Shown: in pieces, positions 5,001 through 20,664 of the stretch
Layout of the letters: each line of letters begins with the position of its first letter
Position numbering within the stretch: the stretch's first letter is position 1
Source of the DNA: a virus
Lineage: Duplodnaviria > Heunggongvirae > Uroviricota > Caudoviricetes
Virus record (IMG/VR): IMGVR_UViG_3300033076_000972
Span: 1-43,328 of that record
Direction: 5' to 3' (one strand)
Length of the DNA: 43,328 bases
The notes under the pieces: model-generated
What the model was told of the DNA's origin: nothing
Database searches by the model: none
What the model saw: the letters and a program-made list of their open reading frames with translations, nothing else
Program-made: the position numbers and the translations under genes

Positions 5001-8000
5001 GTGTAAATGGTCGTTTACCTGAGTTTGCTGAACCATAAACAATGTTATATGTTTTAGATGGATTTGATGTTATAGGGTCATAATTTTTCTTGTAATCAAA
5101 ATCTTTCCATATTGATGTTAGAATATCTGTGTTAGTTTCAATATAATTTTTATATCTATACCATATTGAACCTAATTTAAGAATCCAAGCATAAGGTAAT
5201 TCATGAATTGCTGAAAACTTATTTAAATTAGCAAATATGTATTCAGTTGAAACACCATTAGTACTATCAATATATTTTTCATGCAATGTTGATAATGGCA
5301 ATGAGTTTAATAAAAGATAACCCAATTTAGTGTATTTGTTATCACCCGTTGAGCTACTTGACTCAACAATTGCGTTTATAAAATAAGGTGTGTTTAATAA
5401 ACTTGTAGTTTGTGTAATTGTTAAATTATTATCAGTTGTGTATGTTAAATTACCCTCAGTATAGAATTTTTTTAATTTGTTTCCATACCTATCTTCATAA
5501 AAATTAATAATAAGTTGGTTTGTTGTTTGTGTGTCTGAATAACCCGCAGTACTAGTTTGGTTTCGAGTTAATGGTGTAATATTTGGGCCCGAAAAATTAT
5601 CAATAACTAATTTTTTATCATTAAAACCATAACTATTAATTGTGGTATATCTATTATCTTTATTAGGTGTACCTTGCATTTTTTTAGCAAAATCATCAAA
5701 GATAAACGGATATGTATCAAAGATTGTGGTTGCGTTAGTTGTATTAGCGCTTATAACACTTCTAATGTTATCCAAACTCTTAATTTTTAATGGGTTAGTT
5801 GTTGAAACATTGAAGTCTCTCGGACTTAAAAGTTTCCAACTATTATTAACTTGGTCTTGAATATATGGTGTTACAAAGTTCTGAGATATAAATGTTTGCC
5901 ATAGTGGTCCCGCTTGATTTTCACCAGCAGTTGTTTTTAAGTAATTATAAAGTGTTGTTGTTGGTAATGTATTTGTAATAACATCTTTTAAATTACCTGT
6001 TGGTAATGACTGTACAACATTATTAGTTTCAATATCTGAGGCGGTTAAAACTAAGTCTTCATTTACATCAATATAATATAACCCAGAATAAAAAGTATTA
6101 AGATATAATCTTTCATACATTTCATAAACATAATTTTCAGTTGGATTATTTTGTTGACTATAAACATTAGTATTAAACGGTATTTCAATAGCGTGTTCAG
6201 GTGTATATTTTAAAACTAAAGACGGATTTGGTTTTACGTCTGTTGTAAAATTTCTGTCTTTTTCTAAAACACCTTTCAAATATTCTTCAACAAATTCAAC
6301 TTCAGGCCATATAACAGGATTATACGCTTGTGTTGATTCACTAGTTGCCTTTGAACCCGGATATGTTACTTCATATTCTACTTTTCCTGATGTTTCTTTT
6401 TTCTGAACAAATTGTGGCCAAGGATAAACAAAATAATTAGGGTTCTGAGTTGTAGTTGTTTTAATTACGTTTTTACCTTCCTGAGATGGGTTTGTAGTCA
6501 GGATTGATTTTAATCTTGCGGTATTTTCTCGTTGGTTCCAAGCATTTGTATGAACATCATCCATTAACTGATAGAAAGCATCAACTGAAGCCATGATAGC
6601 ACCGACAACGTTTCTAACTGTTGGTCTAAATTGTAAGTCTTGTACATTACCATTTGTCCTAACCTTATCTTTTAAAACTTGGTTAAGTCTTTCTGATTCT
6701 TCTTTATATTTTTGTATAATTTGACCATTAATGTTTTTTATACTTTCAATTTCTTTATCTAATGTATAGTAATATAAATTACCTGTAGTTATTGTAACAT
6801 TTTCTTTTGGGTCAATAGAAATTAAGGTTCCGTTGGTTCTTAATTCATTTATCAAATTAACTTTAAATTTATTATATTCAACGTCGGTATTTGGATTAGT
6901 TATTTGTCGACCCCTTTGTTTGAAATATGTGTCCTCAAAATTAATGTCTTCAACACTGAATTTTTCTTTAAAGAAATTAACATTAAACGCTTTAGGGTCT
7001 AAAGCAATACTTTTACAAATATCAGTTGGTACTGAACTAAATTCTTTAATCGCTCCGTCTAAAATTGATGTTAATTTATTTTCTACTTCACCTGACAATT
7101 TTACATTTGACTCAATTGTTTCACCTGTTGAACTATTTGTTAAATTTTTCAATGGATACAATTTAATATTCTTAAACGAGTCGTTTAATACCAATACTTT
7201 AGTTGAGTCTAAGTTTGTTTGTCCCCAATCAACAATTTTATTACTAAAATTATTTAAAGAACCCTTATATCTTTCAAGTGCAACTATATTTGTAAAATCT
7301 AATTTATCAAATTCTTTATTCAAAAATTCTGTATACTTGGTCAATCTCAATGACATTTCATTCAAAGATATTGCCGGTACATTGTTATCAATTAAACCTC
7401 TTCTTTTATATTCATCAAAAACTTGTACTATTTTAGAATAACCTTTTGACGGTGATTGTACAAGTACTTCAGTAGTATTTCCAACACCATTTTGTTGTAC
7501 CGATGCGGTACCTGTGTCATTTGTATTACCGTTTGGTACATTAGGTATATAATACTGATTATACATGTGTGGTAATGCAAACAAATATCCTAAACGGATA
7601 TCATCTAGCATTGCACTTGTTCTAGCAATAAATTTTAAATTAACAACATAATTTCCCGTTGACGCTTCAAACGAAGCTTGGAAATTTAATAACATTAACT
7701 CATACTTAATGGCTTTACCATAAAACCCTTTCAATACTAATTCAAAAAGAGGGTATGGATAATATAAGAATACGGAATAAGGTGAATTACCACCTGTTTG
7801 GAATAAACTTCGACCTTGAACATCTACCAATGTCATTGTTACTGTTGGGACACCGTTGAATTTTATATCAACATTAATGTCTCTAATACCCAAAACTTGG
7901 GTGTCAACAAAATTAGTTTGTTGTGGGTTTTGAATATTATTAAATTTGATTTGGTTTACACCTTGTCCTTGACTACTACCAGCTCCTGTAAATTCGTCAG

Positions 8001-8280
8001 TATAACTTGTGTCAAATACATTTTTATCAGTAGGTTTTAAAAAATTAATTGACGCAACTGTTGTATTGTTTACGCTCGACTCAACGTCTTGTCCTACAGC
8101 AAGTTTTGTTCTTGGTACAGCCTTTGCAATTAAATTTGCATACATTACCAAATTCTCTTGTTTTATAACACGGTCTTTTTTTAACCCTTTTGAATCTATA
8201 ACAGAATTTGGGTCAATTAAAACAATGTTTGAGTTTTCTTCGTAATATATGTTTTCACCACCACCAAAATTATCTGCCAT
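2011..8280 (-). CDS. Giant baseplate hub-like protein (gp27/gpD/VgrG-type ends) with a possible C-terminal cell-wall hydrolase-like domain
   Basis: About 2090 aa. A hub-type motif LGNVMIQPTMYFVLRHMPMFNGTYIIRNVKHTISPGSFNTEFNGQR lies near the C-terminus, and the gene follows the gp53/LysM-like gene. Start at 8280 (MADN) overlaps the upstream stop (ATGGCAGATAA) and is preferred over 8307. Confidence 0.6.
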   Translation of the reverse strand: MADNFGGGENIYYEENSNIVLIDPNSVIDSKGLKKDRVIKQENLVMYANLIAKAVPRTKLAVGQDVESSVNNTTVASINFLKPTDKNVFDTSYTDEFTGAGSSQGQGVNQIKFNNIQNPQQTNFVDTQVLGIRDINVDIKFNGVPTVTMTLVDVQGRSLFQTGGNSPYSVFLYYPYPLFELVLKGFYGKAIKYELMLLNFQASFEASTGNYVVNLKFIARTSAMLDDIRLGYLFALPHMYNQYYIPNVPNGNTNDTGTASVQQNGVGNTTEVLVQSPSKGYSKIVQVFDEYKRRGLIDNNVPAISLNEMSLRLTKYTEFLNKEFDKLDFTNIVALERYKGSLNNFSNKIVDWGQTNLDSTKVLVLNDSFKNIKLYPLKNLTNSSTGETIESNVKLSGEVENKLTSILDGAIKEFSSVPTDICKSIALDPKAFNVNFFKEKFSVEDINFEDTYFKQRGRQITNPNTDVEYNKFKVNLINELRTNGTLISIDPKENVTITTGNLYYYTLDKEIESIKNINGQIIQKYKEESERLNQVLKDKVRTNGNVQDLQFRPTVRNVVGAIMASVDAFYQLMDDVHTNAWNQRENTARLKSILTTNPSQEGKNVIKTTTTQNPNYFVYPWPQFVQKKETSGKVEYEVTYPGSKATSESTQAYNPVIWPEVEFVEEYLKGVLEKDRNFTTDVKPNPSLVLKYTPEHAIEIPFNTNVYSQQNNPTENYVYEMYERLYLNTFYSGLYYIDVNEDLVLTASDIETNNVVQSLPTGNLKDVITNTLPTTTLYNYLKTTAGENQAGPLWQTFISQNFVTPYIQDQVNNSWKLLSPRDFNVSTTNPLKIKSLDNIRSVISANTTNATTIFDTYPFIFDDFAKKMQGTPNKDNRYTTINSYGFNDKKLVIDNFSGPNITPLTRNQTSTAGYSDTQTTNQLIINFYEDRYGNKLKKFYTEGNLTYTTDNNLTITQTTSLLNTPYFINAIVESSSSTGDNKYTKLGYLLLNSLPLSTLHEKYIDSTNGVSTEYIFANLNKFSAIHELPYAWILKLGSIWYRYKNYIETNTDILTSIWKDFDYKKNYDPITSNPSKTYNIVYGSANSGKRPFTLLGTNTIQNGFYPQVINSFYKLLTNNNLFDNYDLDNSTVLFGNELVLQYNNENVGKIKGPISSWYSYLNINADYTPYFGPQYDGFKCLFPSSGVQPFQQSYYELRDEGNTSDVSISELSSSNQMYNGSVKTFWNAPTYGWFDNSKVTMPTPFEYMKYVRTGTTENQPDFDISSVYSSIEDLFGVFTKDQLDSFETEFKEFCKIDGQSKIFSPEGDDTTYANIINLFKKMFLIKPDAGLDNISLAKTQAANINDVLSKFVNIQVYLKNGNPKKYDRQQFGNFSNNPQFKPAQNFSYGGQYVTFYPNDPNPLPSVGGKTVSDSKSQYPDVWKTLQEYVGFSTIEGIEYTQTSTVYDFFRDNQIPFTSENIKGLYPLIRIYATQKKLDSTYSSTRFASDISNILTKAETKRNSIEQQFRGKLPSSLLGQRQETTQNVDSKLDGDIIKLEQWELFKAVNDKWVAGRDTKSRLIFDEFLFFDKANRDIGDELIINTDSIRKYCNWDNSSNSVMSLIRQIVSDNRMNFFVMPAYINFYGKSSLRTTDRNVSILNNANDVFSTYTYVDYIDSAPKFLCQYIDRPSQTLSLESDPNYPFKSDSFDLGNPTNNPIVEKSSPNQHNSNKAVGFVVDFGTINQSIFKSVDINQEQGVTSSEQIQTTIDMGNQGSGKKTMQQTTSLYDFYKNRSYTSTVKTLGNVMIQPTMYFVLRHMPMFNGTYIIRNVKHTISPGSFNTEFNGQRVSANINTKVSEDLASVNEDFSKKLSDKIKQFVDSNTLVSFDSNSRQYLTGDQSKNYVLSGRTPYQGFISQTTDISTQECLENVNPVYGVVTNSDLITSSITVNNLVSLINNSTTDSKLKTYMFCMLYMMGNNTEITSRLKYKQNNLYGVIIDVAFPGGLKSLITKYRCLKTGENLTRPFATFNTIEDNVNFVRDFYSQKMGSYFTDGLLEEQTVNKIIELFYNTWYTSGALNKTYNQDSNYNTWLGNVRWAYKQAKTLGLY

Positions 8281-8587
8281 AATAATAGAATCTTGTTTGT
8301 ATAGCATTATTATAATCCTGAAGTGAAGTAACTAAAGGATATGGTATAATAATGATTGAATTATCAGGTATATCCCACTCTAACCCACCATACTCAGGAT
8401 TCGCTTGTAATATTAACCAACCAAAAAATGGTGTTCCATAATATTCTTGACTAATCTTATCTAATCTACTAACACCTGCTTTAAATACATATTTTATATC
8501 AGTACTTTTTCTTGGTAGTGTTAAACCAGGAACAACGGTTTGCTCACCGTTTAACAAAAATTGACTATATCTATTGTAGTAATCCAT
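8270..8587 (-). CDS. Baseplate wedge gp53-like / LysM-fold (tail X-type) protein
   Basis: 105 aa with the signature RLDKISQEYYG..FFGWLILQANP...IPDNSIIIIP, located in the baseplate cluster. Confidence 0.75.
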   Translation of the reverse strand: MDYYNRYSQFLLNGEQTVVPGLTLPRKSTDIKYVFKAGVSRLDKISQEYYGTPFFGWLILQANPEYGGLEWDIPDNSIIIIPYPLVTSLQDYNNAIQTRFYYYGR

Positions 8588-11500
8588 TAGAATATAACTT
8601 TACCATTAAATGTATTTTTATCAGGATTACTATTTTGTCCTGTGTAAAGATTTTTTAATCTTGTTTTATCATTATCAGTTGCGGATGGGTTAAGAGTAAT
8701 ACTTGTTATTCTTTTATTCTTAATTAAAGTTGTAGCGTCACCAGGAATGTAACTTTTCTTATACTCTTTATTGTATGTTGAGAAAATTTCACTCATTTTT
8801 TTCTTTTCCCCGTCAGCGGGTTCTTTATAATATTTAGTTAAATTTTTACTAATAAAACTTGTCCAATCTTTTGTAGTAAATGAACCTATTACTTGAGTTT
8901 CAAACGCTTTATAGTTATTAGCCAATTGCCATCCAAATACTAAAAAGAATCTTTTATCAGCTGCGTTAGTTGCAAAACTACCATTTGGTAATACATAGTT
9001 TTGGTCATCACTATAAGTTGATGTTATGATTTTTTTAGTTTCCAAATTTGTCTCTAATAAATTAATTAATGGTGAGTAAGTATTCATCATTATACCAATT
9101 TCATTTACAGTCGTTGCACTATCTATATTATAAATTTGTGGAACCCCTTTAGTATCAATATAACCATCAATTCCTTGAATTACATAGTTCAATTTGTCTA
9201 TGTTTCTTGTCATAGTAAGTTGAAGTTTTGATAATTCATTACTTGTGTTTACAAGTTTATCTGTAAATGCTGGTTTATAATCATTTACCAATTTTTTTAA
9301 TTGGTTATTGAAGTTGTTTTGGTCAACGGATTTAAAATTTTGTTTCAACATTTCCTGTTGAATAGTTAATGAGTTTGTACTAATATCACTTAATAATGAA
9401 CTAAATAACGTGTCAATTTTACTTTCAAACGTTGATTTACCAAAGATTGTAAGATTAGTCTGTGTTGCCGATGGGCTACCAAATTCATTCATTTGACCTG
9501 ATTTATAATCACGGTCTTTGGTGTATAACATTAAAATACCACTATTGTATTGTTCACTAATTTGTTTTAATTTATCGTATTCACCTTGAGTAAAATTATT
9601 AAAACTTCCGATGAAATCATTAACAATACCTTTATAGGCAATATTAGCGGTTGTGCCACTGTTTTTAAATTTACCATCAACATCACCAATAGTAGTTCCC
9701 CCTTCATTTTGAAGTGTAGAGTTTGTATTTTTAATTGTGTCGCCAGTTGGTTCTGTCTTTTCAATAAACTGTTTGTTGTAAGCTGAAACCTGTAATGAAT
9801 CAGTTGCTCTTTCATCATACATTTCAGTATTGGCAAAGAAATTAAACGACAATGCGTTTTGTAATTCATCAATTGGTCCTTTTAATCCTTGACCACCAAT
9901 AAATTTGAATCCCATACTTACGGTTACAATCATTGGTTGTACACCAATACCTTCAGGGTTCAAATCATATTTTGAATCATCATATGAAAAATTACAACTA
10001 TCAATAACAACTTTCGAGTGATAAAAATCACCAACTCTTAAAATACAGATTGGTGGTGCACCAAATGATGTGTTTCGAGCATCAGTATCAATTAAATTAC
10101 CACCAGCTTGTTTTGTTGGGATAGTATCACCAGGTCTTGTACATTGTAATAAAAATGTTAATCTTTCATTCAAACCCTCAGGTGTCATAGAGTGAAACGC
10201 TGGATGAAAATATTTTAACTTTTCTTTTAAAGAGTCATAAACAAATGGATTACTTTCTTTCATAAATTTAAAGTAATCCGCCTCACTCAAAAGTTTTCTA
10301 ATAACTTGTTTAGAAATAGATTCTTGTGTTGGTACCGCAGGTGTGTTGAAATTATTTATAATATTCTTTTGATTTTCATTTAATAAAGTATCAATAGCGC
10401 TAATGGCACCCGATGCAACTCCACCATTTGGATTGTTTAAGTTTGGAAGTGGCGTTTCAATGATATCTTCAATGATAACTCTTCTACAACCCACAGGTCC
10501 TGTACCATATTGGTCAGTTGTTGTTGTACTACATTTATAGTTTTGTGGTTGAATTGTTTCATCCGCAGAACCATTTGACTTAGAAATCTTAACTCTTTTA
10601 TCGTTATTCAATAAAGTTTTGATTGAATCTTCAATACATGTGTTTCTTTCAGACTCAATATTATTTCCTTCGTTATATGATATATTTGAGCGTAATCTAA
10701 TTTCAATAGTTACATTGGCATTTGATGACAATAATGTTTTAATACTTTCAGTAAATGCTGTTAACGCATTTTCTGAAGATGTTATTAATGTCTGTTGGGT
10801 AGAATTAATTTTACTGTAATTAGGACTTGTTGTATAAGTAACAACATTGTTTGAGTAGTTGGTTCCCCCACCACTATTGTAGTCAAAATAAAACTGTGTT
10901 GATTTGTAAGCACTTAATTGTGGTGTATAAACTTGTTGTCCTACATTTGAATTTGAACTTAAAGAGCCACCGGCAGCGTCACCACCAATATTTAATGATT
11001 GATTAACAACATCTTTAATTTTTTCAGGATTACTTGAACCATTAATGATTTTTTGAATCTGTCCCAATTCTGTTGGTGAGAAATTGTTATATCTCTTTGA
11101 CAATTCATATATATCAAATTTTGTAAGTCCCGCAAAGAATGAATCAATTACTTGGTCAGCAATTTGACTTGATGATGTATTATTTAAAACTCTATTAACC
11201 AATAAATTCATTACTGAAGGGTGGTCGACAATTACCTTAAAAGATAATTGACCGCTTCTTTCAGAACTTTGATATGTGTAAATTTTTTCAGGTCTACCCA
11301 AAAAAGAATTACCTTCCCAAGACGCTGAGTTGTTTTCACTAAATGTTAAATCATACGGTGGGAACCACATAATTCTACCTCCATTTGGTCCTTTTTCAGA
11401 TTCAGGTAAATCAGAATATCTAAATCCAGGTCTTCTTGATGTTCTCCATGCAAGGTTTTCTAATGACAACATATATTTTTTAACTTGTCCACCTTGTAGT

Positions 11501-13230
11501 GTTGTTGAGTCAGGTCCTGATGTTGGGTATATGTTTAGGTTATATGTTTTATCTAAAATAGAATATGGATTTTTTCTTATTCCACCATCACTCTTAACCA
11601 ATTTTTGATTATCATAATATGGAATATCTTTAGCAAATACTCTACCATATTCCTCACCTTTGAATATACCATTGTTATCTGTATATCTAATAACTCTTGA
11701 ACCTTTTGTAATTTCTTTATATCCATCGTTGAATACTTTTGAAACTTGGTCAATCGCATTACCTACGTGTTGTAATCTTTTACCACCAGCCGGTTGTGAG
11801 TTAATTAATCTTTGTGTATCATCTAAAATACCACCTTGTTTAAGTGCATATCCTGTTGATTCACTTCTTGTATAATTTGCTGCGATTGGTTGATACTCAG
11901 GGTCTTGACCTTTTATATCACCACCAACACCAACTTTAAATCCGGCATTTCCTTTATATTTTGGTGAAACCCAAGTAAATCCACCCTGAACACCACCACC
12001 CTCTATGGTAGGGGTTTGGTTTAATCCGAATTTAAAATCAACGTTGTTCTCATATAATTTAGCTAAATTACTTGGTCCGTATACGTTTGTTTCAACTTCA
12101 ACACCAAATTGGTTTACCGGAATTTGTCCTGAAGGTGATACAATATCTAATGGTTCAGATGTTCTACTACCAATATAATAATTTCCTTTTGGTGCCGTTA
12201 AATTTAAGTTACTTAAAAAATTAGCTTTGTAGTCAGGTGTATAATAGTTTAAAGATAAATTATTAAATAATACTTTTCTTGAACCACCACTAGTGTATGC
12301 TAAAAATACATCTGATGAACTTTTTTTACTTGGTAATACCGATGGAAATCCAAATACATTAGCAACTGCGTTGATTGCTTGGTTTAATATACTTTTTTTA
12401 CCTACGTTGTTAAAATAATCACCAGGTATGTACGAATATGGTGAATAAACACCTGTGACTCTTGAAATAAAATCTAATCCTTTACCTATAATACTATCAG
12501 GTACTGTGATATGCCAATCAGGTTCTATTAAAGGTTGTCTGCCCGTTATTAAATTTAATATTCTATAAGGGTCACTACCTGTTTGAAGAGCGTTTGCTCT
12601 ACCTAAAGTTTGTTGGTAAGTTTCTAAAGCGATTGAAGATTCGAATAATTTTCTTAAGTTGGTCGCACCTATTTGAGCTAATGATGAATCTTGTGATAAT
12701 GAACCTAAAGTACCAATAGGGTCTTTACTTAAAAGAATATTAATTGGTCTGTAACTTGAAGCTCTGAATGTATAATATTCTGCTCTTGTCGTTAATTGTC
12801 TAACAATTAATTCTAACTCAGATGATGCGTCTACCCATCCGTCTTGTGGTCCAAATAAATTTTTAGTTATTAAATTTTTTTGTGAAAATTGTGCTTCGTC
12901 AAACTTTTTGGTTTGTGGACTAGCAAAATTAAATTCACCCTCATTTGAGTTATTTATTACAACATCATTATTAGCAGTTGTTTTATATCCCCCATCAGGA
13001 CCGTATTGGTTAACCGTGTATAATCTTTTCTTTTCAGGAATTGATGTGTCAATCATGTCCGGTTGATTTACCAAAGGTACATCAATCCAAGTTGTTTCTT
13101 TAGTATATGCTTGGTTTTTTGGGACAACTCTTGTTCCTGAACCTTTAACAAAATAAGGTTCCAAGTTAGACGCAATTAATTTTTTTCTAAATTGGTCTGA
13201 AGCTGAAAATGATAATAAGTTGTCTGCCAT
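8587..13230 (-). CDS. Large baseplate / tube-initiator protein (gp48/gp54-like domains) with an inserted degenerate OmpA-like domain
   Basis: 1547 aa between the tape measure and gp53-like genes. It has two tube-initiator-like blocks (MWFPPYDLTFSEN...LGRPEKIYTYQSSERSGQLSFKVIVDHP and GAPPICILRVGDFY...PMIVTVSMGFKFIG). Confidence 0.55.
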   Translation of the reverse strand: MADNLLSFSASDQFRKKLIASNLEPYFVKGSGTRVVPKNQAYTKETTWIDVPLVNQPDMIDTSIPEKKRLYTVNQYGPDGGYKTTANNDVVINNSNEGEFNFASPQTKKFDEAQFSQKNLITKNLFGPQDGWVDASSELELIVRQLTTRAEYYTFRASSYRPINILLSKDPIGTLGSLSQDSSLAQIGATNLRKLFESSIALETYQQTLGRANALQTGSDPYRILNLITGRQPLIEPDWHITVPDSIIGKGLDFISRVTGVYSPYSYIPGDYFNNVGKKSILNQAINAVANVFGFPSVLPSKKSSSDVFLAYTSGGSRKVLFNNLSLNYYTPDYKANFLSNLNLTAPKGNYYIGSRTSEPLDIVSPSGQIPVNQFGVEVETNVYGPSNLAKLYENNVDFKFGLNQTPTIEGGGVQGGFTWVSPKYKGNAGFKVGVGGDIKGQDPEYQPIAANYTRSESTGYALKQGGILDDTQRLINSQPAGGKRLQHVGNAIDQVSKVFNDGYKEITKGSRVIRYTDNNGIFKGEEYGRVFAKDIPYYDNQKLVKSDGGIRKNPYSILDKTYNLNIYPTSGPDSTTLQGGQVKKYMLSLENLAWRTSRRPGFRYSDLPESEKGPNGGRIMWFPPYDLTFSENNSASWEGNSFLGRPEKIYTYQSSERSGQLSFKVIVDHPSVMNLLVNRVLNNTSSSQIADQVIDSFFAGLTKFDIYELSKRYNNFSPTELGQIQKIINGSSNPEKIKDVVNQSLNIGGDAAGGSLSSNSNVGQQVYTPQLSAYKSTQFYFDYNSGGGTNYSNNVVTYTTSPNYSKINSTQQTLITSSENALTAFTESIKTLLSSNANVTIEIRLRSNISYNEGNNIESERNTCIEDSIKTLLNNDKRVKISKSNGSADETIQPQNYKCSTTTTDQYGTGPVGCRRVIIEDIIETPLPNLNNPNGGVASGAISAIDTLLNENQKNIINNFNTPAVPTQESISKQVIRKLLSEADYFKFMKESNPFVYDSLKEKLKYFHPAFHSMTPEGLNERLTFLLQCTRPGDTIPTKQAGGNLIDTDARNTSFGAPPICILRVGDFYHSKVVIDSCNFSYDDSKYDLNPEGIGVQPMIVTVSMGFKFIGGQGLKGPIDELQNALSFNFFANTEMYDERATDSLQVSAYNKQFIEKTEPTGDTIKNTNSTLQNEGGTTIGDVDGKFKNSGTTANIAYKGIVNDFIGSFNNFTQGEYDKLKQISEQYNSGILMLYTKDRDYKSGQMNEFGSPSATQTNLTIFGKSTFESKIDTLFSSLLSDISTNSLTIQQEMLKQNFKSVDQNNFNNQLKKLVNDYKPAFTDKLVNTSNELSKLQLTMTRNIDKLNYVIQGIDGYIDTKGVPQIYNIDSATTVNEIGIMMNTYSPLINLLETNLETKKIITSTYSDDQNYVLPNGSFATNAADKRFFLVFGWQLANNYKAFETQVIGSFTTKDWTSFISKNLTKYYKEPADGEKKKMSEIFSTYNKEYKKSYIPGDATTLIKNKRITSITLNPSATDNDKTRLKNLYTGQNSNPDKNTFNGKVIF

Positions 13231-13280: not shown

Positions 13281-14861
13281 TTAAGGCCCAACACTGTATC
13301 CACTCTTATCAGATACTGTGGTTTTAACAGATTTTGCAATCTCATTTGCAATATGTATTTTAACAACATCAGACAATCCAACATCTAATCCTGTAACTCT
13401 AACATCAATAACAGGATTACCTTCCACTTTAATAAATTTATCTTTTGATACTGCTTGGGTATATTCATTTATTCTATCCAAAAAAGTTTCTGTTCCACTA
13501 GCAGAGAAAGAACTTTTTAAATCTCCTAGTATTTTACCACCACCTTCAATTGATTTGTCTAAAATATTTTTTACTTGTTCTTGAGCTTTTACAACAACAC
13601 CTGTGTATCCTTCTAAAGAAGTTGAAAAATTACCAGCTTGTAAAGTTGCCATTGAAAATGCATTTGTTAATTGGTTGTTAGCTAAAATAACTGATTCAGT
13701 TGCCGATAAATTTCGTTGTATACTATCAATATTAGCATCGGTGTTATTTTTTAATTCACTACCTGAACCTTGAATATTTGATAAAATTTCTTTTACTTTC
13801 TCAGGAGTTAATCCACCAATATCTTGACCTTCAATTGTTACAACACCACCTTTTTGTAATTGAGCATAACCCGCAAGTGTTTCTTGTTCTTCTTTAGACA
13901 ATCCTTCAAATTGTGGTTTAAATTGGAATTGACTTATAATTTGTTCTTGTTTTGCTAACTTTAAAGCGGTTTCTTCAATTTTATCGGCCTCAATTCCAAG
14001 ATTTTTCAATCCCTTTAATCTTAATCTTTCATTCGCACTTATTTCAAACTGACCTGTTTCTTTATTAAATGTTGCAATACCTCTTGTGGCATTAATTAAT
14101 TGGTCATTTAATCCTTTTAAATCATTTTGAGCCATGTACAATAATTGTGCACCATCACCTAATTGTGAAAATGAACCACCTAATGTTTGTAATTGAGCAG
14201 CATATTCATAAGCCTTTTCAGGACTATCCATAATTTGGTCGGCAAAATTTTGTGCAACACTTAATGTATCACCTAAGAGTTGTGACTTAGCAACCATTGA
14301 CGCCAAGTCAGATACTCCTTTGGGAAATCCGTATTTGTTAACAATGTCTAATTTACCTGCAACTGAACCAAGAAATTGTCCAACATTTAATCCATAAGCT
14401 TTAGCAGTATTAACTAATTGAATTTGTTTTTCAGTTGCTGCGTCCATACCGCCACCAACTTTGTCAAAAAACTTGACAAAAGAATTAATAGTCTCACCTT
14501 TAACACCGTATTTTTCAATCGCTTCAACATTTTCATAAAATTGTTGAGACAGATATGTTGTTCTACCTATTTGTGTGTTAATTTCGGTAAACGTTTTAAT
14601 AACGTCTTCCAAAGACCCACCCATTTTAACAACATTAACCGCAGCTCTTCCTAATTCGTTTTCAACACTTTTTGCGTAAGCAGCACTTTGTCCTAAATTT
14701 CTGGCATTAGATATTAACTTAGTGTCAAAATTTGACACAGTATTAAGTGTATCTTTAAAATTACCTTTTAACCTTTCAGATATTTTACCAACTTTTTCAA
14801 GTTCAGCGGCAAGTCCTGTTACTTGGGTGGTAGTTTGGGTTACTTCGTTTTGTTCCGGCAT
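13281..14861 (-). CDS. Tape measure protein
   Basis: 526 aa, helical and Ala/Gln/Leu-rich, positioned after the tube and chaperone pair and before the baseplate genes. Confidence 0.65.
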   Translation of the reverse strand: MPEQNEVTQTTTQVTGLAAELEKVGKISERLKGNFKDTLNTVSNFDTKLISNARNLGQSAAYAKSVENELGRAAVNVVKMGGSLEDVIKTFTEINTQIGRTTYLSQQFYENVEAIEKYGVKGETINSFVKFFDKVGGGMDAATEKQIQLVNTAKAYGLNVGQFLGSVAGKLDIVNKYGFPKGVSDLASMVAKSQLLGDTLSVAQNFADQIMDSPEKAYEYAAQLQTLGGSFSQLGDGAQLLYMAQNDLKGLNDQLINATRGIATFNKETGQFEISANERLRLKGLKNLGIEADKIEETALKLAKQEQIISQFQFKPQFEGLSKEEQETLAGYAQLQKGGVVTIEGQDIGGLTPEKVKEILSNIQGSGSELKNNTDANIDSIQRNLSATESVILANNQLTNAFSMATLQAGNFSTSLEGYTGVVVKAQEQVKNILDKSIEGGGKILGDLKSSFSASGTETFLDRINEYTQAVSKDKFIKVEGNPVIDVRVTGLDVGLSDVVKIHIANEIAKSVKTTVSDKSGYSVGP

Positions 14862-14872
14862 AATAATAAATA

Positions 14873-15088
14873 TTATTTATTGGATTTTTCACGAGCTTCA
14901 ATAATCATATCGTGTTCTTGAAGAACTTTGCCAATAAAATATTTACGTTCATATGTTGGCATACTCATAACGTCAACATAAGAAAAGTTGGCGTTTTTAA
15001 CCAAAAAAAATATTTCGTCTAATAATATTTTTTTATATTCCGAAGAAAGGACGAAAAAAGTCAACCCCAAAATTGACAGTAATGTCAA
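14873..15088 (-). CDS. Second tail-assembly chaperone ORF (T / cyanophage gp51-like), probably expressed as a frameshift extension from ~15052
   Basis: FSYVDVMSMPTYERKYFIGKVLQE is a typical 'T'-chaperone motif. The frame opens after a TGA with only a TTG at 15088, has no ATG until codon 41, and overlaps the end of the upstream ORF in the +1 frame. Confidence 0.7.
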   Translation of the reverse strand: MTLLSILGLTFFVLSSEYKKILLDEIFFLVKNANFSYVDVMSMPTYERKYFIGKVLQEHDMIIEAREKSNK

Positions 15089-15785
15089 TCATTTCTCCTG
15101 ACGGGGTTCTAACTTGTTTGGTTAAATCCAATCTTGGTTCAACCTCTTTTAAAAATTTTCTAATGAATTTTGAGTCGGCAATTGGCATCTGTTGAACATA
15201 TTTTACAATAGACTCTCTATCCGTACTACCATTGATTGAAACAATCTGAGCCTCCAATTTTCTTGTAATAATTGGAGCAATCATACTTTTTGGATAAATT
15301 TCCATTTCTTTATCAATCATATTTTCTTCACCATAAGTTAAAAGTTTTAATTTAACAATATCCTTAGAGATTGGTAAATTTGTTTCAAATAAACCTTCTT
15401 GGTCAGGTGTTACGTCAACTTTTTTTATATTCAATTCACTTAAATCAACTTCAGCATCAAATCTTTGATTTGTTTTTGGGTCAAAAGATGATAAAACATA
15501 TCTTGTTCCAAAAGCAGTATTTCTTAAAAACAATAAGATTGCTTCAATGTCACCACCTAGCATATCGTCAATTCTAAAATCAGGCTCGTAAATTTTTGAT
15601 TTTAACAATTGGTTAATAACATTGTCACTATTTGAACTCATTAAAAGGTTTTCATCTTGGGCGGTCAAATATCCAACCTTAACTGATTTCTTTTTATTAG
15701 CATAAAATAAACCTTGTGAAGGTAGTGGTACCACATCGTGTGGTAAGTTAAAATTCATTTGTCCGTATTGTATTTCGTTTTCCAT
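15033..15785 (-). CDS. Tail assembly chaperone / baseplate hub assembly protein, T4 gp26-like
   Basis: Contains LPHDVVPLPSQGLFY...VKVGYLTAQDENLL...DIEAILLFLRNTAFG and ends VNFGVDFFRPFFGI. Start ATG at 15785; the track start at 15797 is a TTG inside a hairpin. Confidence 0.75.
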   Translation of the reverse strand: MENEIQYGQMNFNLPHDVVPLPSQGLFYANKKKSVKVGYLTAQDENLLMSSNSDNVINQLLKSKIYEPDFRIDDMLGGDIEAILLFLRNTAFGTRYVLSSFDPKTNQRFDAEVDLSELNIKKVDVTPDQEGLFETNLPISKDIVKLKLLTYGEENMIDKEMEIYPKSMIAPIITRKLEAQIVSINGSTDRESIVKYVQQMPIADSKFIRKFLKEVEPRLDLTKQVRTPSGEMIDITVNFGVDFFRPFFGI

Positions 15786-15789
15786 AAAA

Positions 15790-15814
15790 AAAGCCAAGGA
15801 TTACCCTTGGCTTT
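15790..15814 (-). terminator. Terminator-like hairpin after the tail tube gene
   Basis: AAAGCCAAGG-GTAAT-CCTTGGCTTT (10-bp stem). The U-tract runs directly into the chaperone ATG. Confidence 0.7.
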
Positions 15815-15850: not shown

Positions 15851-16339
15851 TTAATAAACTAAGATACATCTATCAGGACGAAGTGTTGCTGAGATGGTTT
15901 GTAAACCGTCATCAGTATATGACACACCCTGAAAGTCCACGTCTGTTAGGAAACAACCTTGTAAAATCCATTTTTCAACCGCAACACCTGTCGGGTCTAA
16001 CATTTCCAAAGTAATATCCTTTTTATAACCAGCAGCATATCCCATACGACCTGTTACTGATTCAGCGTGTAAACGAACCCATTCCATAAGTGCTTGAGCA
16101 GCTGATGGTCCAATAGGGTCACGGAAAGTAACACCAATGGTTCCCCATTCAAACATACCAGCAACATATGTTTTTGTGTTTAGGAATGCAATATCTTTAG
16201 ATGCAATTGTTATTTTTGGTCTAGCAGCAGATTCTACATACCAAGAATTAATACCCAATGAAGTAGGAAACGTTAAAATAAATCGGTTTTTACGTTTTGG
16301 TTCATACGGGTCGGGCATTTTCATTAATAAGTCAGCCAT
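15851..16339 (-). CDS. gp19: Tail tube protein, T4 gp19-like
   Basis: Contains YEPKRKNRF, VESAARPKI, AGMFEWGTIGVTFRDPI, ALMEWVR and EKWILQGCF. 162 aa, downstream of the sheath gene. Confidence 0.9.
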   Translation of the reverse strand: MADLLMKMPDPYEPKRKNRFILTFPTSLGINSWYVESAARPKITIASKDIAFLNTKTYVAGMFEWGTIGVTFRDPIGPSAAQALMEWVRLHAESVTGRMGYAAGYKKDITLEMLDPTGVAVEKWILQGCFLTDVDFQGVSYTDDGLQTISATLRPDRCILVY

Positions 16340-17508: not shown

Positions 17509-20500
17509 TTAGATATTTTCAAACGAAGCTCCTGTTGGTGTAATCAAGAACTCAATGTCAATGAATTCAAGAGCTTTTGTTGGTTTAAGGTAAATTTTAC
17601 CTGTCATTGTATTTCTATCCAAATCTTCAGGTGTGTTTGTTACAACAACTCTAAAGTCAATTAAACCTCTATCTCTTCTAATTGAATCCAAAATTGGGTT
17701 AACAGCGTCTAAGAAATCTTGTCTTACTTTATCGTCGTTTTGTTCAAACAACAATCTAACAGCCACTGCTGAAATCAATTTACGAGCTTGTAACAACAAT
17801 CTTCTTACGTTGATTCTATCAAGAGCTGATTCAGCAACTTGAGTAGTTTTGTTACCCCAAATTAATGTTCCAACATCTGAGAAAGTTGCAATTGGGTTAA
17901 TTCTACCTTGATACAAAGTATCTCTATCATCTTGAGTAAGTTTTTTACGAGCTTTAACTGAATTTACAATACCTCTCGTATAACCCGCTGATGCGAACCA
18001 AGGGAATGAAATGTTATCAGTCAACGCTAAGTTTCTACAAACTTCAGCAGTTGGTGGAAGATAAATTTGTGTATTATTTACAGTATCTCTTGTTAATACC
18101 CAAGGATAATAAGTAGCTGTGTAGTTTGAATCGATACCAGTACCGTCCAAGTTGTCAACTGCTTCAGTTGGGTAAATTAAATCAGTTGCTGGTGATGTTG
18201 TAGTATTAACAAACATGTTATAATCAGGACAAGTCATAATATATAATGAATCAGCTCTTTGTGATTCAATCATATCAATTGCGTCTTCAACCAAGTTAGA
18301 GTTATTAACAAAGTCAATTCCTGGTGTTACAAACACGTTAATGTTTGTTGCTTCAGGATTGCCAAATGTTTGTTGTCCTAATAAGTATGCGTAGTAGTCA
18401 GTGTTTGCCCATTCAGTTGCGTTACCGTTAACAGTAATTCTCTTGAATGCTCCCCATCCTGTTGCAGTTGGGAATTGTGTTGTTGGTGCTGCTCCTTTTA
18501 AGTAACCTGAACCACCTAACACGTAGTTATCACCGTTTGTTCTATATTTTCTATAAATGTCCCATCCGTCAAATCCACCACGAGCAAATAATGTGAATTT
18601 TCTTGCTTGGATTCTGTAGTATGGATTTGTTGGGTCAGTAGGGTCAGAAGTGAAAGAAGTATCACCTACTTCAAAAGCTGAAGTACCTGATGTACTATAT
18701 ACTGATGAAATTGTTACAACAGTTGCTCCTGAGTCCATATGGAAACCTTTAGATAAGAAATCCCAATCAGCTGACGAAGTAGCTGTTGCAATGTTATTAG
18801 GATTTTGTTTTCCTTTATAATTGTAATATTCAGGGTCATAACCAATAGTATCAGACAAACCTAAGAATACTCTATTAATTTTATCACCAGCACTTCTTTG
18901 AACTGATGAGAAAGGTGGTTGATAAATTACCTCACCCGCAACATCATATTTTGTTTTATACACAGGGAACGGAGTAACAGCTCCATTATAATTTCTCATT
19001 AAGTAACCTTCAAATCCACAAGGTAATGCGTCTATTGGTGCTTCAGAACTAATTTCTAACATTACATATTTTGACCTTACAGCGTATTCACCATCACTAG
19101 TTCCAATTTTAACACCCACGAAACTATTTGAACCAGGGTTCATAGAACAATTTGTGAATTTTTCTAAGTAAACAGGACTTGCATCCGTATCATTATATGC
19201 TCTAATTGCCACGTCAAAAGTTCCATTATTAAATGAAATATTCATTATAGAAATTTTAACTTCTTGGTTAGCGTCATTACCATCTGAAATTAATATAAAT
19301 TTAAACAATTCATAAACTTTGTTACCTCTTAATTCAGAAACAACAAATGGAGTTTCAGGTGTTTGATATTGTTCTAAGTACCAACCTATAGATGTATTAC
19401 TTCCATTATCGTCTTGTGCTGAAGGTAATGCTGTAATACTTTGTTGGACACCTCTAATGTAACCTTTCTTATATGAATAATTAAGTAAATTATTAAATTC
19501 TTCCTCAACAAACAATGGTACCTCATTACTTGGTTTTCCAAAATTAGATTGACCAAATACTTTTGAAATAAAGTTTGTATCTGTAGAATCTAAAGAAGCT
19601 TTAAATTCAAATGTGTTACCCTCGTAAGTTATACCAGAAACACCAAATGGTGAATATGGACTCATAGATGCTCCACTATAAGTTCCACTAAAATCCAAAA
19701 CAACATCAGTTGTTCCTGTTACTTGATAAACAGGATTTGTTGAAGTAGTATAATTTGATACACCTCTTGAACGTAAAGTTGCTATTACAACATCATTGTA
19801 TTCAGTATATGCAGTTCCAACAAAATTAACACCTGATACTTTAACAGTACCTGAGTAACTACCAGTTGCTCCTGTGATAATCGATATGTTTGATGAGAAT
19901 GAATATCCCGAATAATTATTACCCGTTGTTGGGTCAAATTGTGAGTAATACCAAGCGTCATTGTCTCTGCTTGAGTATGTTTGATTAGCATCTTTAAGAC
20001 TTGGTACACTGTATACATTTGTTAAACTTGTATATCCCGCACCTGTTAAACTATTATAAGTTGTATTATCTAAAGTACCAAAAACGTATGCTGAACTTGC
20101 ACTTAAAGAAGGTGTTGTAACAACTGAGCTTACAAACGATTTAAGTTGAGATTCAATTGACGAGGTTGTGCCATCTGACAACGTAAATTGTTTAGTTAAA
20201 TCATTATAAAAAATTGCTGAAGAAAAAGAACCAAACGAAACGGTTCCACCTGTTGTTGCTGTAAAGTTAACATATACTGCGGATACCGCTGAATTTACTG
20301 CGACTGTCGAACCTTTTACGTTCGCAACCGTACTAATAGACCAAGATGGTCCCGCATCATAACCAGACAAACCAAGAATTCTTGATACGAATAATTGGTT
20401 AGATTGTGATAAATATGATTTAGCGATATACGCTGCTTCGTATTTTGGTATCTGTGTATCTACAAACTTTTCAGGAGATGTTCCCCCAAAGATTGCTGAA

Positions 20501-20664
20501 AATTCATCGAAACTTGAAACGAAGATTGGCTCAAAAGCCGGACCTTTCAAAGTTTCTCCTACAATACCTAACGTTGTAACACCTACGCTTTGTGCTACGA
20601 ATGATAAGTCACGTTCTGAAGTATAAACTCCAGGTGAAACGAAAACTTTATTTGATGTTGCCAT
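17509..20664 (-). CDS. gp18: Tail sheath protein, T4 gp18-like
   Basis: N-terminal FVSPGVYTSERDLS and C-terminal YYPWV, WFASAGYTRG, LYQGRINPI, IWGNKT, ALDRINVRRLL and LEFIDIEF motifs. 1051 aa with insertions. Confidence 0.95.
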   Translation of the reverse strand: MATSNKVFVSPGVYTSERDLSFVAQSVGVTTLGIVGETLKGPAFEPIFVSSFDEFSAIFGGTSPEKFVDTQIPKYEAAYIAKSYLSQSNQLFVSRILGLSGYDAGPSWSISTVANVKGSTVAVNSAVSAVYVNFTATTGGTVSFGSFSSAIFYNDLTKQFTLSDGTTSSIESQLKSFVSSVVTTPSLSASSAYVFGTLDNTTYNSLTGAGYTSLTNVYSVPSLKDANQTYSSRDNDAWYYSQFDPTTGNNYSGYSFSSNISIITGATGSYSGTVKVSGVNFVGTAYTEYNDVVIATLRSRGVSNYTTSTNPVYQVTGTTDVVLDFSGTYSGASMSPYSPFGVSGITYEGNTFEFKASLDSTDTNFISKVFGQSNFGKPSNEVPLFVEEEFNNLLNYSYKKGYIRGVQQSITALPSAQDDNGSNTSIGWYLEQYQTPETPFVVSELRGNKVYELFKFILISDGNDANQEVKISIMNISFNNGTFDVAIRAYNDTDASPVYLEKFTNCSMNPGSNSFVGVKIGTSDGEYAVRSKYVMLEISSEAPIDALPCGFEGYLMRNYNGAVTPFPVYKTKYDVAGEVIYQPPFSSVQRSAGDKINRVFLGLSDTIGYDPEYYNYKGKQNPNNIATATSSADWDFLSKGFHMDSGATVVTISSVYSTSGTSAFEVGDTSFTSDPTDPTNPYYRIQARKFTLFARGGFDGWDIYRKYRTNGDNYVLGGSGYLKGAAPTTQFPTATGWGAFKRITVNGNATEWANTDYYAYLLGQQTFGNPEATNINVFVTPGIDFVNNSNLVEDAIDMIESQRADSLYIMTCPDYNMFVNTTTSPATDLIYPTEAVDNLDGTGIDSNYTATYYPWVLTRDTVNNTQIYLPPTAEVCRNLALTDNISFPWFASAGYTRGIVNSVKARKKLTQDDRDTLYQGRINPIATFSDVGTLIWGNKTTQVAESALDRINVRRLLLQARKLISAVAVRLLFEQNDDKVRQDFLDAVNPILDSIRRDRGLIDFRVVVTNTPEDLDRNTMTGKIYLKPTKALEFIDIEFLITPTGASFENI

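What the first reader, a model, noticed from the sequence alone, without database searches (positions are those of the whole stretch)
14873..15062. Candidate +1 programmed frameshift (UUU_UUU_CGU_C) joining the tail chaperone pair
The gene order tube - chaperone G - ORF T - tape measure is the classic lambda G/GT arrangement, which normally uses a -1 shift (-2 in Mu). Here G ends GAC UUU UUU CGU CCU UUC UUC GGA AUA UAA (slip site 15059-15050) and ORF T is in the +1 frame. ORF T has no ATG until codon 41, and its frame reads ...FF-VLSSEYKKILLDEIFF exactly from the UUU/UUC overlap. A P-site tRNA-Phe could re-pair UUU to UUC, the same UUU_CGN signature known for influenza PA-X and amalgavirus +1 shifting. 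Predicted products are 250 aa (G) and about 303 aa (244+59, GT). As far as I know a +1 shift is atypical for phage tail chaperones.
Basis: partly seen in the sequence, partly recalled or inferred. Interest (0 to 1): 0.8.

Follow-up and report, generated by a model that had tools for sequence, protein, structure and literature searches.

The report
Plus-one frameshift in phage tail chaperone
A tail-assembly helper gene of this uncultured AT-rich phage very probably makes a short and a long protein because some ribosomes skip one base at a strictly conserved UUU-UUU-CGN site; this is a forward-slipping version of the classic lambda G/GT trick, in the gene family that phage T4 keeps as two separate genes (26 and 51).

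Summary
On the minus strand a 250-aa ORF (15785-15033) ends GAC TTT TTT CGT CCT TTC TTC GGA ATA TAA. A start-less ORF in the +1 frame runs on to 14873.

The upstream gene is not a lambda gpG homologue. It belongs to the T4 gp26/gp51 hub-assembly chaperone family (PF12322, phrog_150). It lies after the tail tube gene and before a probable tape measure gene.

In about 125 related metagenomic loci (51-99% identity):
- the block GGG GNN GAN TTT TTT CGN CCT TTC TTC is nearly invariant;
- the +1 frame is always open for 43-58 further codons, and the other frame is closed;
- stops on both sides confine the shift to 20 nt around the T-run;
- the downstream frame is under purifying selection (pN/pS 0.22-0.42) before any start codon.

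The fused read extends the phrog_150 match into the region that only T4 gp51 (the long paralogue) covers. More distant relatives keep UUU followed by C or U, with the second ORF in +1. Others carry TTTTTTTTC with the ORF in -1.

No conserved RNA structure was found. No experiment or RNA data were available, and I found no paper reporting this.

The scan reached the same conclusion earlier on other genomes (e1-5386434, e1-5372459).

Verdict: a real, conserved +1 (less likely -2) recoding site and a new variant of a known kind.

The parts
15033..15785 (-). Short form 'G' (250 aa), a member of the T4 gp26/gp51 baseplate-hub/tail assembly chaperone family
   Evidence: PF12322 T4_baseplate at 30.5 bits (cutoff 24.5). 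phrog_150 'baseplate hub' at E 3.3e-13, profile positions 10-234 of 282. The AF2 model has pLDDT 85.7. The stop position is kept in the 120 best homologues.
15050..15059 (-). Proposed +1 shift site UUU_UUU_CGU_C. tRNA-Phe on the second UUU (15056-15054) re-pairs with UUC (15055-15053), so C15053 is effectively skipped.
   Evidence: TTT TTT CGN is invariant in about 125 loci. Stops in both frames confine the shift to 20 nt that contain it. More distant relatives keep UUU followed by C or U.
15042..15071 (-). Nearly invariant 30-nt block TTY GGG GNN GAN TTT TTT CGN CCT TTC TTC. It includes GGGG (15068-15065), built on a rare Gly codon, which may be an SD-like stimulator.
   Evidence: Alignment A3 of 52 sequences that are below 90% identical. 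GGG makes up only 39 of 971 Gly codons in the window's ORFs. The function of GGGG and of CCT TTC TTC is inferred, not shown.
14873..15052 (-). ORF T as translated after the shift: 59 codons (VLSSEYKKILLDEIFF...MPTYERKYF...) plus the stop at 14875-14873. It is the C-terminal extension of the long form.
   Evidence: The +1 frame is open in all loci. pN/pS is 0.22-0.42 in this frame and at least 1 in the other two. It extends the phrog_150 match to profile position 273. It resembles the C-terminus of T4 gp51 and the natural in-frame long form P0250.
14873..15785 (-). Composite coding region of the predicted long form 'GT' (303 aa: residues 1-244 in frame 0, then 59 in frame +1)
   Evidence: Alignment A2 shows the fused reads of 11 loci aligning end to end.
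15851..16339 (-). Tail tube gene immediately upstream
   Evidence: phrog_4542 'tail tube protein' at E 2e-25.
13281..14861 (-). 526-aa ORF immediately downstream, a probable tape measure protein
   Evidence: There is no Pfam or PHROG function. Atlas feature hits of 0.92-0.93 to PhageMin_Tail and TMP_3 clusters are a lead only. The gene in the same position in Bacillus phage HSE3 is annotated as tape measure.

Best explanation
The gene at 15785-15033 encodes a baseplate-hub/tail assembly chaperone of the T4 gp26/gp51 family.

Most ribosomes read it to the UAA at 15035-15033 and make the 250-aa short form. A fraction shift with tRNA-Phe in the P site on the second UUU (15056-15054) and the rare Arg codon CGU waiting in the A site. 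The tRNA slips one base forward onto UUC, which pairs better with its GAA anticodon. Those ribosomes continue in the +1 frame through 59 more codons to 14873.

The result is a 303-aa long form with the junction ...GVDFF-VLSSEYK.... The two forms share the chaperone body. Only the long form carries the gp51-like C-terminal tail. By analogy with lambda G/GT, that tail would tether the chaperone to the tape measure/hub during tail initiation.

Shown here:
- the conservation of the site and of both frames;
- the absence of an independent start for T;
- purifying selection on T;
- homology of G to gp26 and of G+T to gp51.

Inferred:
- that the ribosome rather than RNA polymerase shifts;
- that the shift is +1 rather than -2;
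- the role of the rare codon and of the upstream GGGG;
- the function of the two products.
For: 1. The anatomy is exactly as described.
2. 45 + 80 IMG/VR loci at 51-99% protein identity all keep TTT TTT CGN (CCT TTC TTC; one has GCT). All keep a +1 ORF of 43-58 codons past the G stop, and the other frame closes within 1-24 codons.
3. In some loci a +1-frame stop lies directly before the T-run. In others the G stop lies directly after TTC TTC. This leaves 20 nt for the shift.
4. L001, L003, L008, L010 and L026 types have no ATG/GTG/TTG in the T frame before codon 17-29. The one 'conserved' Met is ATA, GTG or CTT in several loci.
5. T codons 9-30 have pN/pS of 0.22 (clade A) and 0.42 (clade B). 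The other two frames give 1.0-2.0.
6. The fused read raises the phrog_150 score from 50.7 to 57.9 bits and extends the match from profile position 234 to 273.
7. T4 gp26 covers phrog_150 positions 14-235 and T4 gp51 covers 13-280. gp26 ends ...KEFFELL*, and gp51 continues ...DVFKLLVNPDEIF...MIPAERGF, like the window's DFF|VLSSEYKKILLDEIFF...MPTYERKYF. A natural in-frame long form, P0250, aligns to T.
8. Relatives at lower identity (24-50% where measured) keep UUU followed by a pyrimidine, with T in +1: TTT TTT TGG (Mel-JY01, L132), TTT TTT TAT (L136), TTT TTT CTA (L137), TTC TTT CGG (L139), TTC TTT CGT (Bacillus phage HSE3) and CTG TTT CGC (Streptomyces phage BRock). L139 has no T6 run, so only a +1 slip of tRNA-Phe fits there.
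9. CGN codons are rare in the window's ORFs (81 of 434 Arg codons; AGA 330). In-frame TTT_C and TTT_CGN are depleted genome-wide: 74 against 105 +/- 5.7, and 3 against 9.1 +/- 2.5.
10. There is no conserved downstream RNA structure, as is usual for +1 sites.
11. UUU_CGN is an established +1 motif in influenza A PA-X (PMC3498833) and amalgaviruses (PMC5052127).
Against: - There is no protein, reporter or RNA evidence.
- The first Phe codon is also always TTT, so a full T6 run is kept although a +1 slip needs only UUU_C. This fits a -2 slip or polymerase slippage as well as it fits an E-site effect.
- The base N of CGN varies freely (T, C, G, A). Residue 245 of the long form is therefore V, A, G or D, which is unusual for a translated codon but acceptable for a linker.
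- One relative has CTA instead of CGN, and Streptomyces phage BRock uses the common codon CGC. A 'hungry Arg codon' therefore cannot be the whole story.
- UUU_CGN has been shown to work only in eukaryotic systems. For bacteria I rely on my memory of work on UUU-pyrimidine sites in E. coli, which I could not retrieve.
Confidence: 0.72

Rival explanations
1. A -2 ribosomal frameshift occurs on the U6 run. tRNA-Phe on the second UUU slips back two bases onto UUU. The same downstream frame is read and the long form has one extra Phe (DFFF-VLSS...).
For: A T6 run, not merely TTT_C, is invariant in all of about 125 close relatives. -2 gives the same frame as +1. From memory, -2 shifts have been proposed for some Mu-like tail chaperone genes (Xu, Hendrix and Duda 2004).
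Against: L139 (TTC TTT CGG), HSE3 (TTC TTT CGT) and BRock (CTG TTT CGC) have the +1-frame ORF but no run that allows -2 re-pairing. -2 shifting is generally inefficient and known cases need extra stimulators. No structure is conserved here.
Confidence: 0.08
2. Transcriptional slippage. RNA polymerase drops one U (or adds two) on the T6 template run, so a subset of mRNAs encodes G-T in one frame.
For: The homopolymer run is invariant. Family members with longer runs (T7, T9) carry the second ORF in +1 or -1 respectively. A slippage mechanism that is indifferent to frame could explain both.
Against: By established knowledge of bacterial polymerases, six T is short for efficient slippage. The phase of the run relative to the reading frame is strictly kept (TTT TTT C for +1, T TTT TTT TTC for -1). 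That matters for ribosomes, not for polymerase. L139, HSE3 and BRock have only T3. The invariant CGN/CCT context and the upstream GGGG are not needed for polymerase slippage.
Confidence: 0.07
3. ORF T is made on its own, by non-canonical initiation or by termination-reinitiation after the G stop, as a separate peptide of 30-55 aa. There is no fusion.
For: Bacillus phage HSE3 and Streptomyces phage BRock have annotated small ORFs with their own ATG or TTG in this position. The window has TTG codons in the T frame at 15088 and further on.
Against: Many loci have a +1-frame stop right before the T-run and no canonical start until codon 17-29, yet codons 1-30 are conserved and under purifying selection. 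No start position is conserved, and the only near-conserved Met is lost in several loci. The invariance of TTT TTT CGN would be unexplained. T4 gp51 and P0250 show that the fused architecture exists naturally.
Confidence: 0.05
4. The +1 shift happens two codons later, at CCU_U, with tRNA-Pro in the P site. This would give ...FFRP-SSEYK....
For: It would make the N of CGN a purely synonymous site, matching its free variation. CCT is invariant although CCA is the preferred Pro codon, 365 against 226.
Against: CCU to CUU is poor re-pairing. Relatives have CCT GAC (L132), CCA CAA (L136), CCT AAG (Mel-JY01) and no Pro at all (L139, BRock), yet still carry T in +1. The T4 gp26 and gp51 sequences diverge right after the FF/VF position, not after RP. 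The invariance of TTT TTT would be unexplained.
Confidence: 0.04

Closest known systems
Phage T4 gp26 (208 aa) and gp51 (249 aa), baseplate hub assembly chaperones (PF12322 T4_baseplate, phrog_150; Leiman et al. 2010, PMC3004832, Table 2)
   Same: The window's G matches the same Pfam and PHROG families. G covers phrog_150 positions 10-234, like gp26 (14-235). G+T covers 10-273, like gp51 (13-280). The point of divergence (FF) and the motifs of the tail (DEIF..., MP.ER..F) correspond.
   Different: T4 encodes the short and long forms as two diverged, divergently transcribed genes with no frameshift. Here one gene would give both through recoding. This gene sits between the tube and the probable tape measure gene, whereas T4 genes 26/51 sit beside hub gene 27. 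Direct profile-to-sequence comparison with T4 gp26 and gp51 was not significant.
Lambda gpG/gpGT and the conserved programmed frameshift of tail assembly chaperone genes in long-tailed phages (Xu, Hendrix and Duda 2004, Mol Cell 16:11; cited from memory and from the reference list of PMC9024508)
   Same: The position is the same: after the tail tube gene and before the tape measure gene. There are two overlapping ORFs, and the second has no start of its own. A slippery sequence sits in the overlap, and a short and a long product share an N-terminus. The top structural matches of the G model, although weak, are tail assembly chaperones: YqbN 3klu at Z 6.0 and the HK97 chaperone 2ob9 at Z 5.4.
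   Different: The direction is +1 (or -2), not -1. The site is UUU_CGN, not an X_XXY_YYZ heptamer. There is no sequence-level homology to gpG families. G is about twice the size of gpG and may be two chaperone-like domains in tandem.
UUU_CGN +1 ribosomal frameshift sites of influenza A virus PA-X (UCC_UUU_CGU, PMC3498833) and plant amalgaviruses (PMC5052127)
   Same: The core is identical: tRNA-Phe on UUU, a rare CGN Arg codon in the A site, re-pairing to UUC, and no downstream structure required.
   Different: Those cases act on eukaryotic ribosomes in RNA viruses. This would be a bacterial ribosome on a dsDNA phage mRNA. This site also has an invariant extra UUU upstream, an invariant CCU UUC UUC downstream and a conserved GGGG 8 nt upstream.
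-1 frameshift variant of the same gp26-like gene (T_TTT_TTT_TTC or T_TTT_TTC) in other giant phages, noted earlier in this scan (e1-5370134 and others) and seen here in L134 and L140
   Same: It is the same gene family. The FF codons at the end of the short form are the slip point, and the T-like extension has the same motifs (...EEV[FY].[IL]SR...[LM]P.[WY].[KR]R...).
   Different: There the run is T9C, in phase for tandem -1 slippage, and the extension lies in the -1 frame. Here the run is T6C in the other phase and the extension lies in +1.

Membership tests
T4 gp26/gp51 hub assembly chaperone family (PF12322 T4_baseplate / phrog_150) | Significant match to the family profiles | tested here: met
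   PF12322 at 30.5 bits against a gathering cutoff of 24.5. phrog_150 at E 3.3e-13 for G and 2.1e-15 for G+T. T4 gp26 and gp51 hit the same two profiles.
T4 gp26/gp51 hub assembly chaperone family (PF12322 T4_baseplate / phrog_150) | A short form ending at the FF motif, and a long form with a gp51-type C-terminal tail | tested here: met
   G ends 6 residues after FF, and gp26 ends ...EFFELL*. G+T reaches phrog_150 position 273, a region covered by gp51 but not by gp26.
T4 gp26/gp51 hub assembly chaperone family (PF12322 T4_baseplate / phrog_150) | Required for baseplate hub assembly and absent from the finished particle | not testable with these tools
   This needs genetics and virion proteomics of a cultured relative.
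Frameshifted tail assembly chaperone pair (lambda G/GT type) | Located between the major tail/tube gene and the tape measure gene | tested here: met
   The tube gene is supported by phrog_4542 at E 2e-25. The downstream 526-aa ORF is a tape measure only by weak feature hits and by synteny with the annotated tape measure of phage HSE3.
Frameshifted tail assembly chaperone pair (lambda G/GT type) | Two overlapping ORFs, the second without its own start, with a conserved slippery sequence in the overlap | tested here: met
Frameshifted tail assembly chaperone pair (lambda G/GT type) | -1 shift on an X_XXY_YYZ heptamer | tested here: not met
   The -1 frame closes within 1-24 codons in all loci, and the extension lies in +1. 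The window therefore works like this family but is a directional variant of it.
Frameshifted tail assembly chaperone pair (lambda G/GT type) | gpG-type chaperone fold or homology | tested here: inconclusive
   There are no Pfam TAC families and no Foldseek PDB hit. VIA-align gives its top rows to YqbN 3klu (Z 6.0), 3fgx (Z 6.0) and the HK97 tail assembly chaperone 2ob9 (Z 5.4). These values are below the level the tool calls reliable.
Frameshifted tail assembly chaperone pair (lambda G/GT type) | Both products made in a fixed low ratio, and both essential | not testable with these tools
   No expression data are available.
UUU_CGN +1 programmed ribosomal frameshift (PA-X / amalgavirus type) | In-frame UUU followed by CGN, with a conserved +1 ORF | tested here: met
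UUU_CGN +1 programmed ribosomal frameshift (PA-X / amalgavirus type) | The A-site codon is rare or slowly decoded | tested here: inconclusive
   CGN is 19% of Arg codons in the window's ORFs and CGG is 0. The phage contig carries no tRNA genes. However, L137 has CTA at this position and BRock uses the common CGC. Host tRNA levels are unknown.
UUU_CGN +1 programmed ribosomal frameshift (PA-X / amalgavirus type) | +1 shift shown by peptide or reporter | not testable with these tools
   An experiment is needed.
prfB (RF2)-type +1 frameshift | In-frame stop codon in the A site at the shift, with an SD-like element 3 nt upstream | tested here: not met
   The A-site codon is CGN, not a stop. The conserved GGGG lies 8 nt, not 3 nt, before the slip codon.

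The most novel reading that the evidence does not exclude
The gp26/gp51-type chaperone gene of a very large group of contractile-tailed phages (1766 clusters at 50% identity) carries an ancient recoding site at its C-terminal Phe-Phe codons. Lineages have switched this site repeatedly between -1 (U9C) and +1 (UUU followed by C or U). T4 would have replaced the site with a gene duplication. In this clade UUU_UUU_CGN, together with an upstream GGGG, would be the first conserved +1 frameshift signal of the PA-X type working on bacterial ribosomes. It may also use the anti-Shine-Dalgarno sequence in hosts that otherwise do not use SD for initiation.
Probability: 0.45. Interest if true: 0.78.

Novelty: new variant of a known kind. 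Interest (0 to 1): 0.62.

Why it matters
The frameshifted G/GT chaperone pair is one of the most conserved features of long-tailed phages, yet T4-type phages have seemed to lack it. This locus and its relatives indicate that the gp26/gp51 family is the T4-type counterpart. In many uncultured phages the family still uses recoding, and here the direction is the unusual +1, on a motif (UUU_CGN) known so far from influenza PA-X and amalgaviruses.

Practical consequences:
- Gene callers miss the long form in hundreds of phage genomes. GenBank records such as Microcystis phage Mel-JY01 annotate two unrelated 'hypothetical proteins'.
- The site offers a compact natural +1 signal to test on bacterial ribosomes.

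The scan has already reported the same site in other genomes, so this window adds a further member and broader comparative support rather than a first discovery.

Tried and rejected
- **Sequencing error or pseudogene.** Rejected. The stop and the frame offset are kept in about 125 independent assemblies and in the 120 best database homologues, which are all about 250 aa.
- **Independent start for T.** Rejected for the clade.
- **Downstream stimulatory RNA structure.** RNAalifold on 52 sequences predicts no pairs. The single-sequence fold has z -0.56. Rfam gives nothing near its thresholds.
- **Direct comparison with T4 gp26 and gp51.** hhalign of the fused alignment against the single T4 sequences was not significant. 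The link rests on the Pfam and PHROG profiles instead.
- **Structure of the fused protein.** Only G was folded.
- **Solved-structure searches.** Foldseek against the PDB and a sequence profile against the PDB found nothing.
- **Literature.** Searches for a published gp26/gp51 frameshift found none in the held library. Subscription journals are not covered, so this is not proof of absence.
- **Phage-encoded tRNA-Arg as a modulator.** There are no tRNA genes in the window or in the 107-kb contig.

Full report
**Observation**

All genes discussed lie on the minus strand. The ORF at 15785-15033 (250 aa, P0001) ends ...AAT TTT GGG GTT GAC TTT TTT CGT CCT TTC TTC GGA ATA TAA. The +1 frame is open from 15088 to the stop at 14875-14873. 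It reads ...LGLTFFVLSSEYKKILLDEIFFLVKNANFSYVDVMSMPTYERKYF... and its first ATG is codon 41. Reading 244 residues in frame 0 and then 59 in frame +1 gives 303 aa.

**What the genes are**

- The upstream gene hits Pfam PF12322 'T4_baseplate' (30.5 bits, cutoff 24.5) and phrog_150 'baseplate hub' (E 3e-13). This is the family of T4 gp26 and gp51, not a lambda gpG family.
- Its neighbours are a sheath gene (17509-20664) and a tube gene (15851-16339, phrog_4542, E 2e-25). Downstream lies a 526-aa ORF with only language-model similarity to tape measure clusters.
- The order sheath, tube, gp26-like gene, small ORF, large tape-measure-like gene recurs in Microcystis phage Mel-JY01, Bacillus phage vB_BceM-HSE3 (where the large gene is annotated as tape measure) and Streptomyces phage BRock.
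- T4 gp26 covers phrog_150 positions 14-235 and gp51 covers 13-280. The window's G covers 10-234 and the fused G+T covers 10-273, with a higher score (50.7 to 57.9 bits).
- T4 gp26 ends ...KEFFELL*. gp51 continues ...DVFKLLVNPDEIFTFY...MIPAERGF..., which parallels DFF|VLSSEYKKILLDEIFF...MPTYERKYF.
- So G corresponds to the short T4 paralogue and G+T to the long one. A natural single-frame long form (P0250, 304 aa) also aligns to T.
- Leiman et al. list gp26 and gp51 as 'hub assembly chaperones' (PMC3004832).

**Comparative test**

- The 120 best database homologues (55-99% identity) are all about 250 aa and cover only the G part. The stop is therefore real.
- Two scans of IMG/VR gave 45 + 80 loci. 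In every one with complete sequence, the +1 frame is open across the G stop for 43-58 further codons. The other frame closes within 1-24 codons.
- The block TTY GGG GNN GAN TTT TTT CGN CCT TTC TTC is essentially invariant in 52 sequences that are below 90% identical over 130 nt. Flanking third positions vary freely.
- N in CGN takes all four values.
- Some loci (L075, L083, L104) have a +1-frame TAG directly before the T-run and the G stop directly after TTC TTC. The shift must therefore occur within 20 nt.
- Sixteen or more loci have no ATG/GTG/TTG in the T frame until codon 17-29. The one widely shared Met codon is ATA, GTG or CTT in several loci.
- T codons 9-30 show pN/pS of 0.22 and 0.42 in two clades. 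The two alternative frames give 1.0-2.0.
- T is therefore translated from a point where no initiation is possible.

**Which site and which direction**

Only the T-run allows re-pairing. Wider relatives from a search of 1.84 billion representatives (1766 clusters; most end FF[W/R/F/Y/L]P...) were inspected at the DNA level.

| Locus or phage | Sequence at the site | Frame of the T-like ORF |
|---|---|---|
| L132, Mel-JY01 | TTT TTT TGG | +1 |
| L136 | TTT TTT TAT | +1 |
| L137 | TTT TTT CTA CCT TTC TTC | +1 |
| L139 | TTC TTT CGG | +1 |
| HSE3 | TTC TTT CGT | +1 |
| BRock | CTG TTT CGC | +1 |
| L134, L140 | TTT TTT TTC | -1 |

- The common denominator of the +1 group is a UUU codon followed by a pyrimidine. 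This is what a forward slip of tRNA-Phe (anticodon GAA) needs.
- L139, HSE3 and BRock lack any run that would permit a -2 slip or polymerase slippage. HSE3 and BRock also have their own start codons, so they may not depend on the shift.
- A rival site at CCU_U is not conserved outside the clade.
- T4 gp26 and gp51 diverge right after the FF position.

**Context supporting shift-proneness**

- In the window's ORFs AGA supplies 330 of 434 Arg codons. CGT supplies 57, CGA 20, CGC 4 and CGG 0.
- The 107-kb contig (31.6% GC) carries no tRNA genes.
- Against synonymous-codon shuffles, in-frame TTT_C is depleted (74 against 105 +/- 5.7), and so is TTT_CGN (3 against 9.1 +/- 2.5). General codon-pair bias could contribute to this.
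- The conserved Gly codon GGG upstream is rare (39 of 971), so it is probably kept for an RNA-level reason. It forms GGGG 8 nt before the slip codon.
- The phage's genes lack Shine-Dalgarno motifs. An SD-like stimulator is therefore a hypothesis only.
- No conserved RNA structure follows the site, and no Rfam family matches.

**Fold**

- An AlphaFold model of G built on 45 homologues has pLDDT 85.7.
- Foldseek finds nothing in the PDB.
- The exhaustive aligner puts YqbN (3klu, Z 6.0, model residues 129-218) first. Next come an uncharacterised Bacillus protein (3fgx, Z 6.0, residues 11-101) and the HK97 tail assembly chaperone (2ob9, Z 5.4).
- These Z values are below the tool's reliability level. 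The theme is still consistent with G being two tail-assembly-chaperone-like domains. I treat this as a lead.

**Literature and earlier scan notes**

- UUU_CGN is documented as a +1 site for influenza PA-X (PMC3498833) and amalgaviruses (PMC5052127).
- I found no paper describing a frameshift in gp26/gp51-type genes. GenBank records for Mel-JY01, HSE3 and BRock annotate separate ORFs.
- The scan itself has already reported the same +1 site in other genomes (e1-5386434, e1-5372459, e1-5362972). It has also reported the -1 variant in further giant phages (e1-5370134 and others).
- I re-derived both independently here.

**Verdict**

A conserved recoding site that fuses G to T is very likely (about 0.9). 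A ribosomal +1 slip at UUU_C is the best-supported mechanism (0.72). A -2 slip, polymerase slippage, a CCU_U shift and independent translation are minor rivals. The finding is a new directional variant of the known chaperone frameshift. It lies in the T4 gp26/gp51 family and remains unverified by experiment.

Noticed in passing
window 15790-15814 (- strand): There is a terminator-like hairpin (AAAGCCAAGGGTAATCCTTGGCTTT followed by a T-run) directly between the tube gene and the chaperone gene. The chaperone ATG sits at the end of the U-tract. Close relatives keep the hairpin with compensatory changes (aagg/cctt, aggg/ccct, agag/ctct). The more distant clade lacks it. It probably lowers chaperone expression relative to the tube protein.
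   Followed up: partly
window 14866-14872 and upstream of most genes; also the region between the T stop and the next gene in L001-L045: A TATTTAT motif lies 5-25 nt before the start of the tape-measure-like gene in the window and in all related loci. It is the reverse complement of the T4 late-promoter core.
   Followed up: partly
window, the 30 nt upstream of all 29 large ORFs: Shine-Dalgarno-like motifs are almost absent (2 of 29 ORFs) and the leaders are A/T-rich. This suggests a host that does not use SD for initiation, for example Bacteroidota. It makes the conserved GGGG before the shift site stand out.
   Followed up: partly
L134:3500-3760 and L140:1440-1680: Relatives in the same gene family carry TTT TTT TTC at the same Phe-Phe position, and the T-like extension lies in the -1 frame. 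The family therefore uses both shift directions.
   Followed up: partly
L132:4073-5284: In one relative an IS605-type OrfB/TnpB gene (PF01385, PF07282) is inserted between the chaperone extension ORF and the next tail gene.
   Followed up: no
whole contig (G000, 107,328 bases): Phe codon choice depends strongly on the next base. TTT_G is enriched (z +9.1) and TTC_G depleted (z -9.1). TTT_C is depleted (z -5.4) and TTC_C enriched (z +5.6). This may be avoidance of shift-prone UUU-pyrimidine sites, or it may be general dinucleotide bias such as CpG avoidance.
   Followed up: partly
window 8587-13230 and 2011-8307 (- strand): Two giant ORFs (1547 and 2098 aa) downstream of the tape-measure-like gene have no Pfam or PHROG match. 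They flank a small gp25-like baseplate wedge gene (8270-8587, phrog_7145, E 8e-4).
   Followed up: no
window 15033-15785, AF2 model md4bae2628604: The chaperone model appears to consist of two similar alpha/beta domains (about residues 11-101 and 129-219). Each gives its best weak match to a small phage chaperone-type protein, which hints at an internal duplication.
   Followed up: partly
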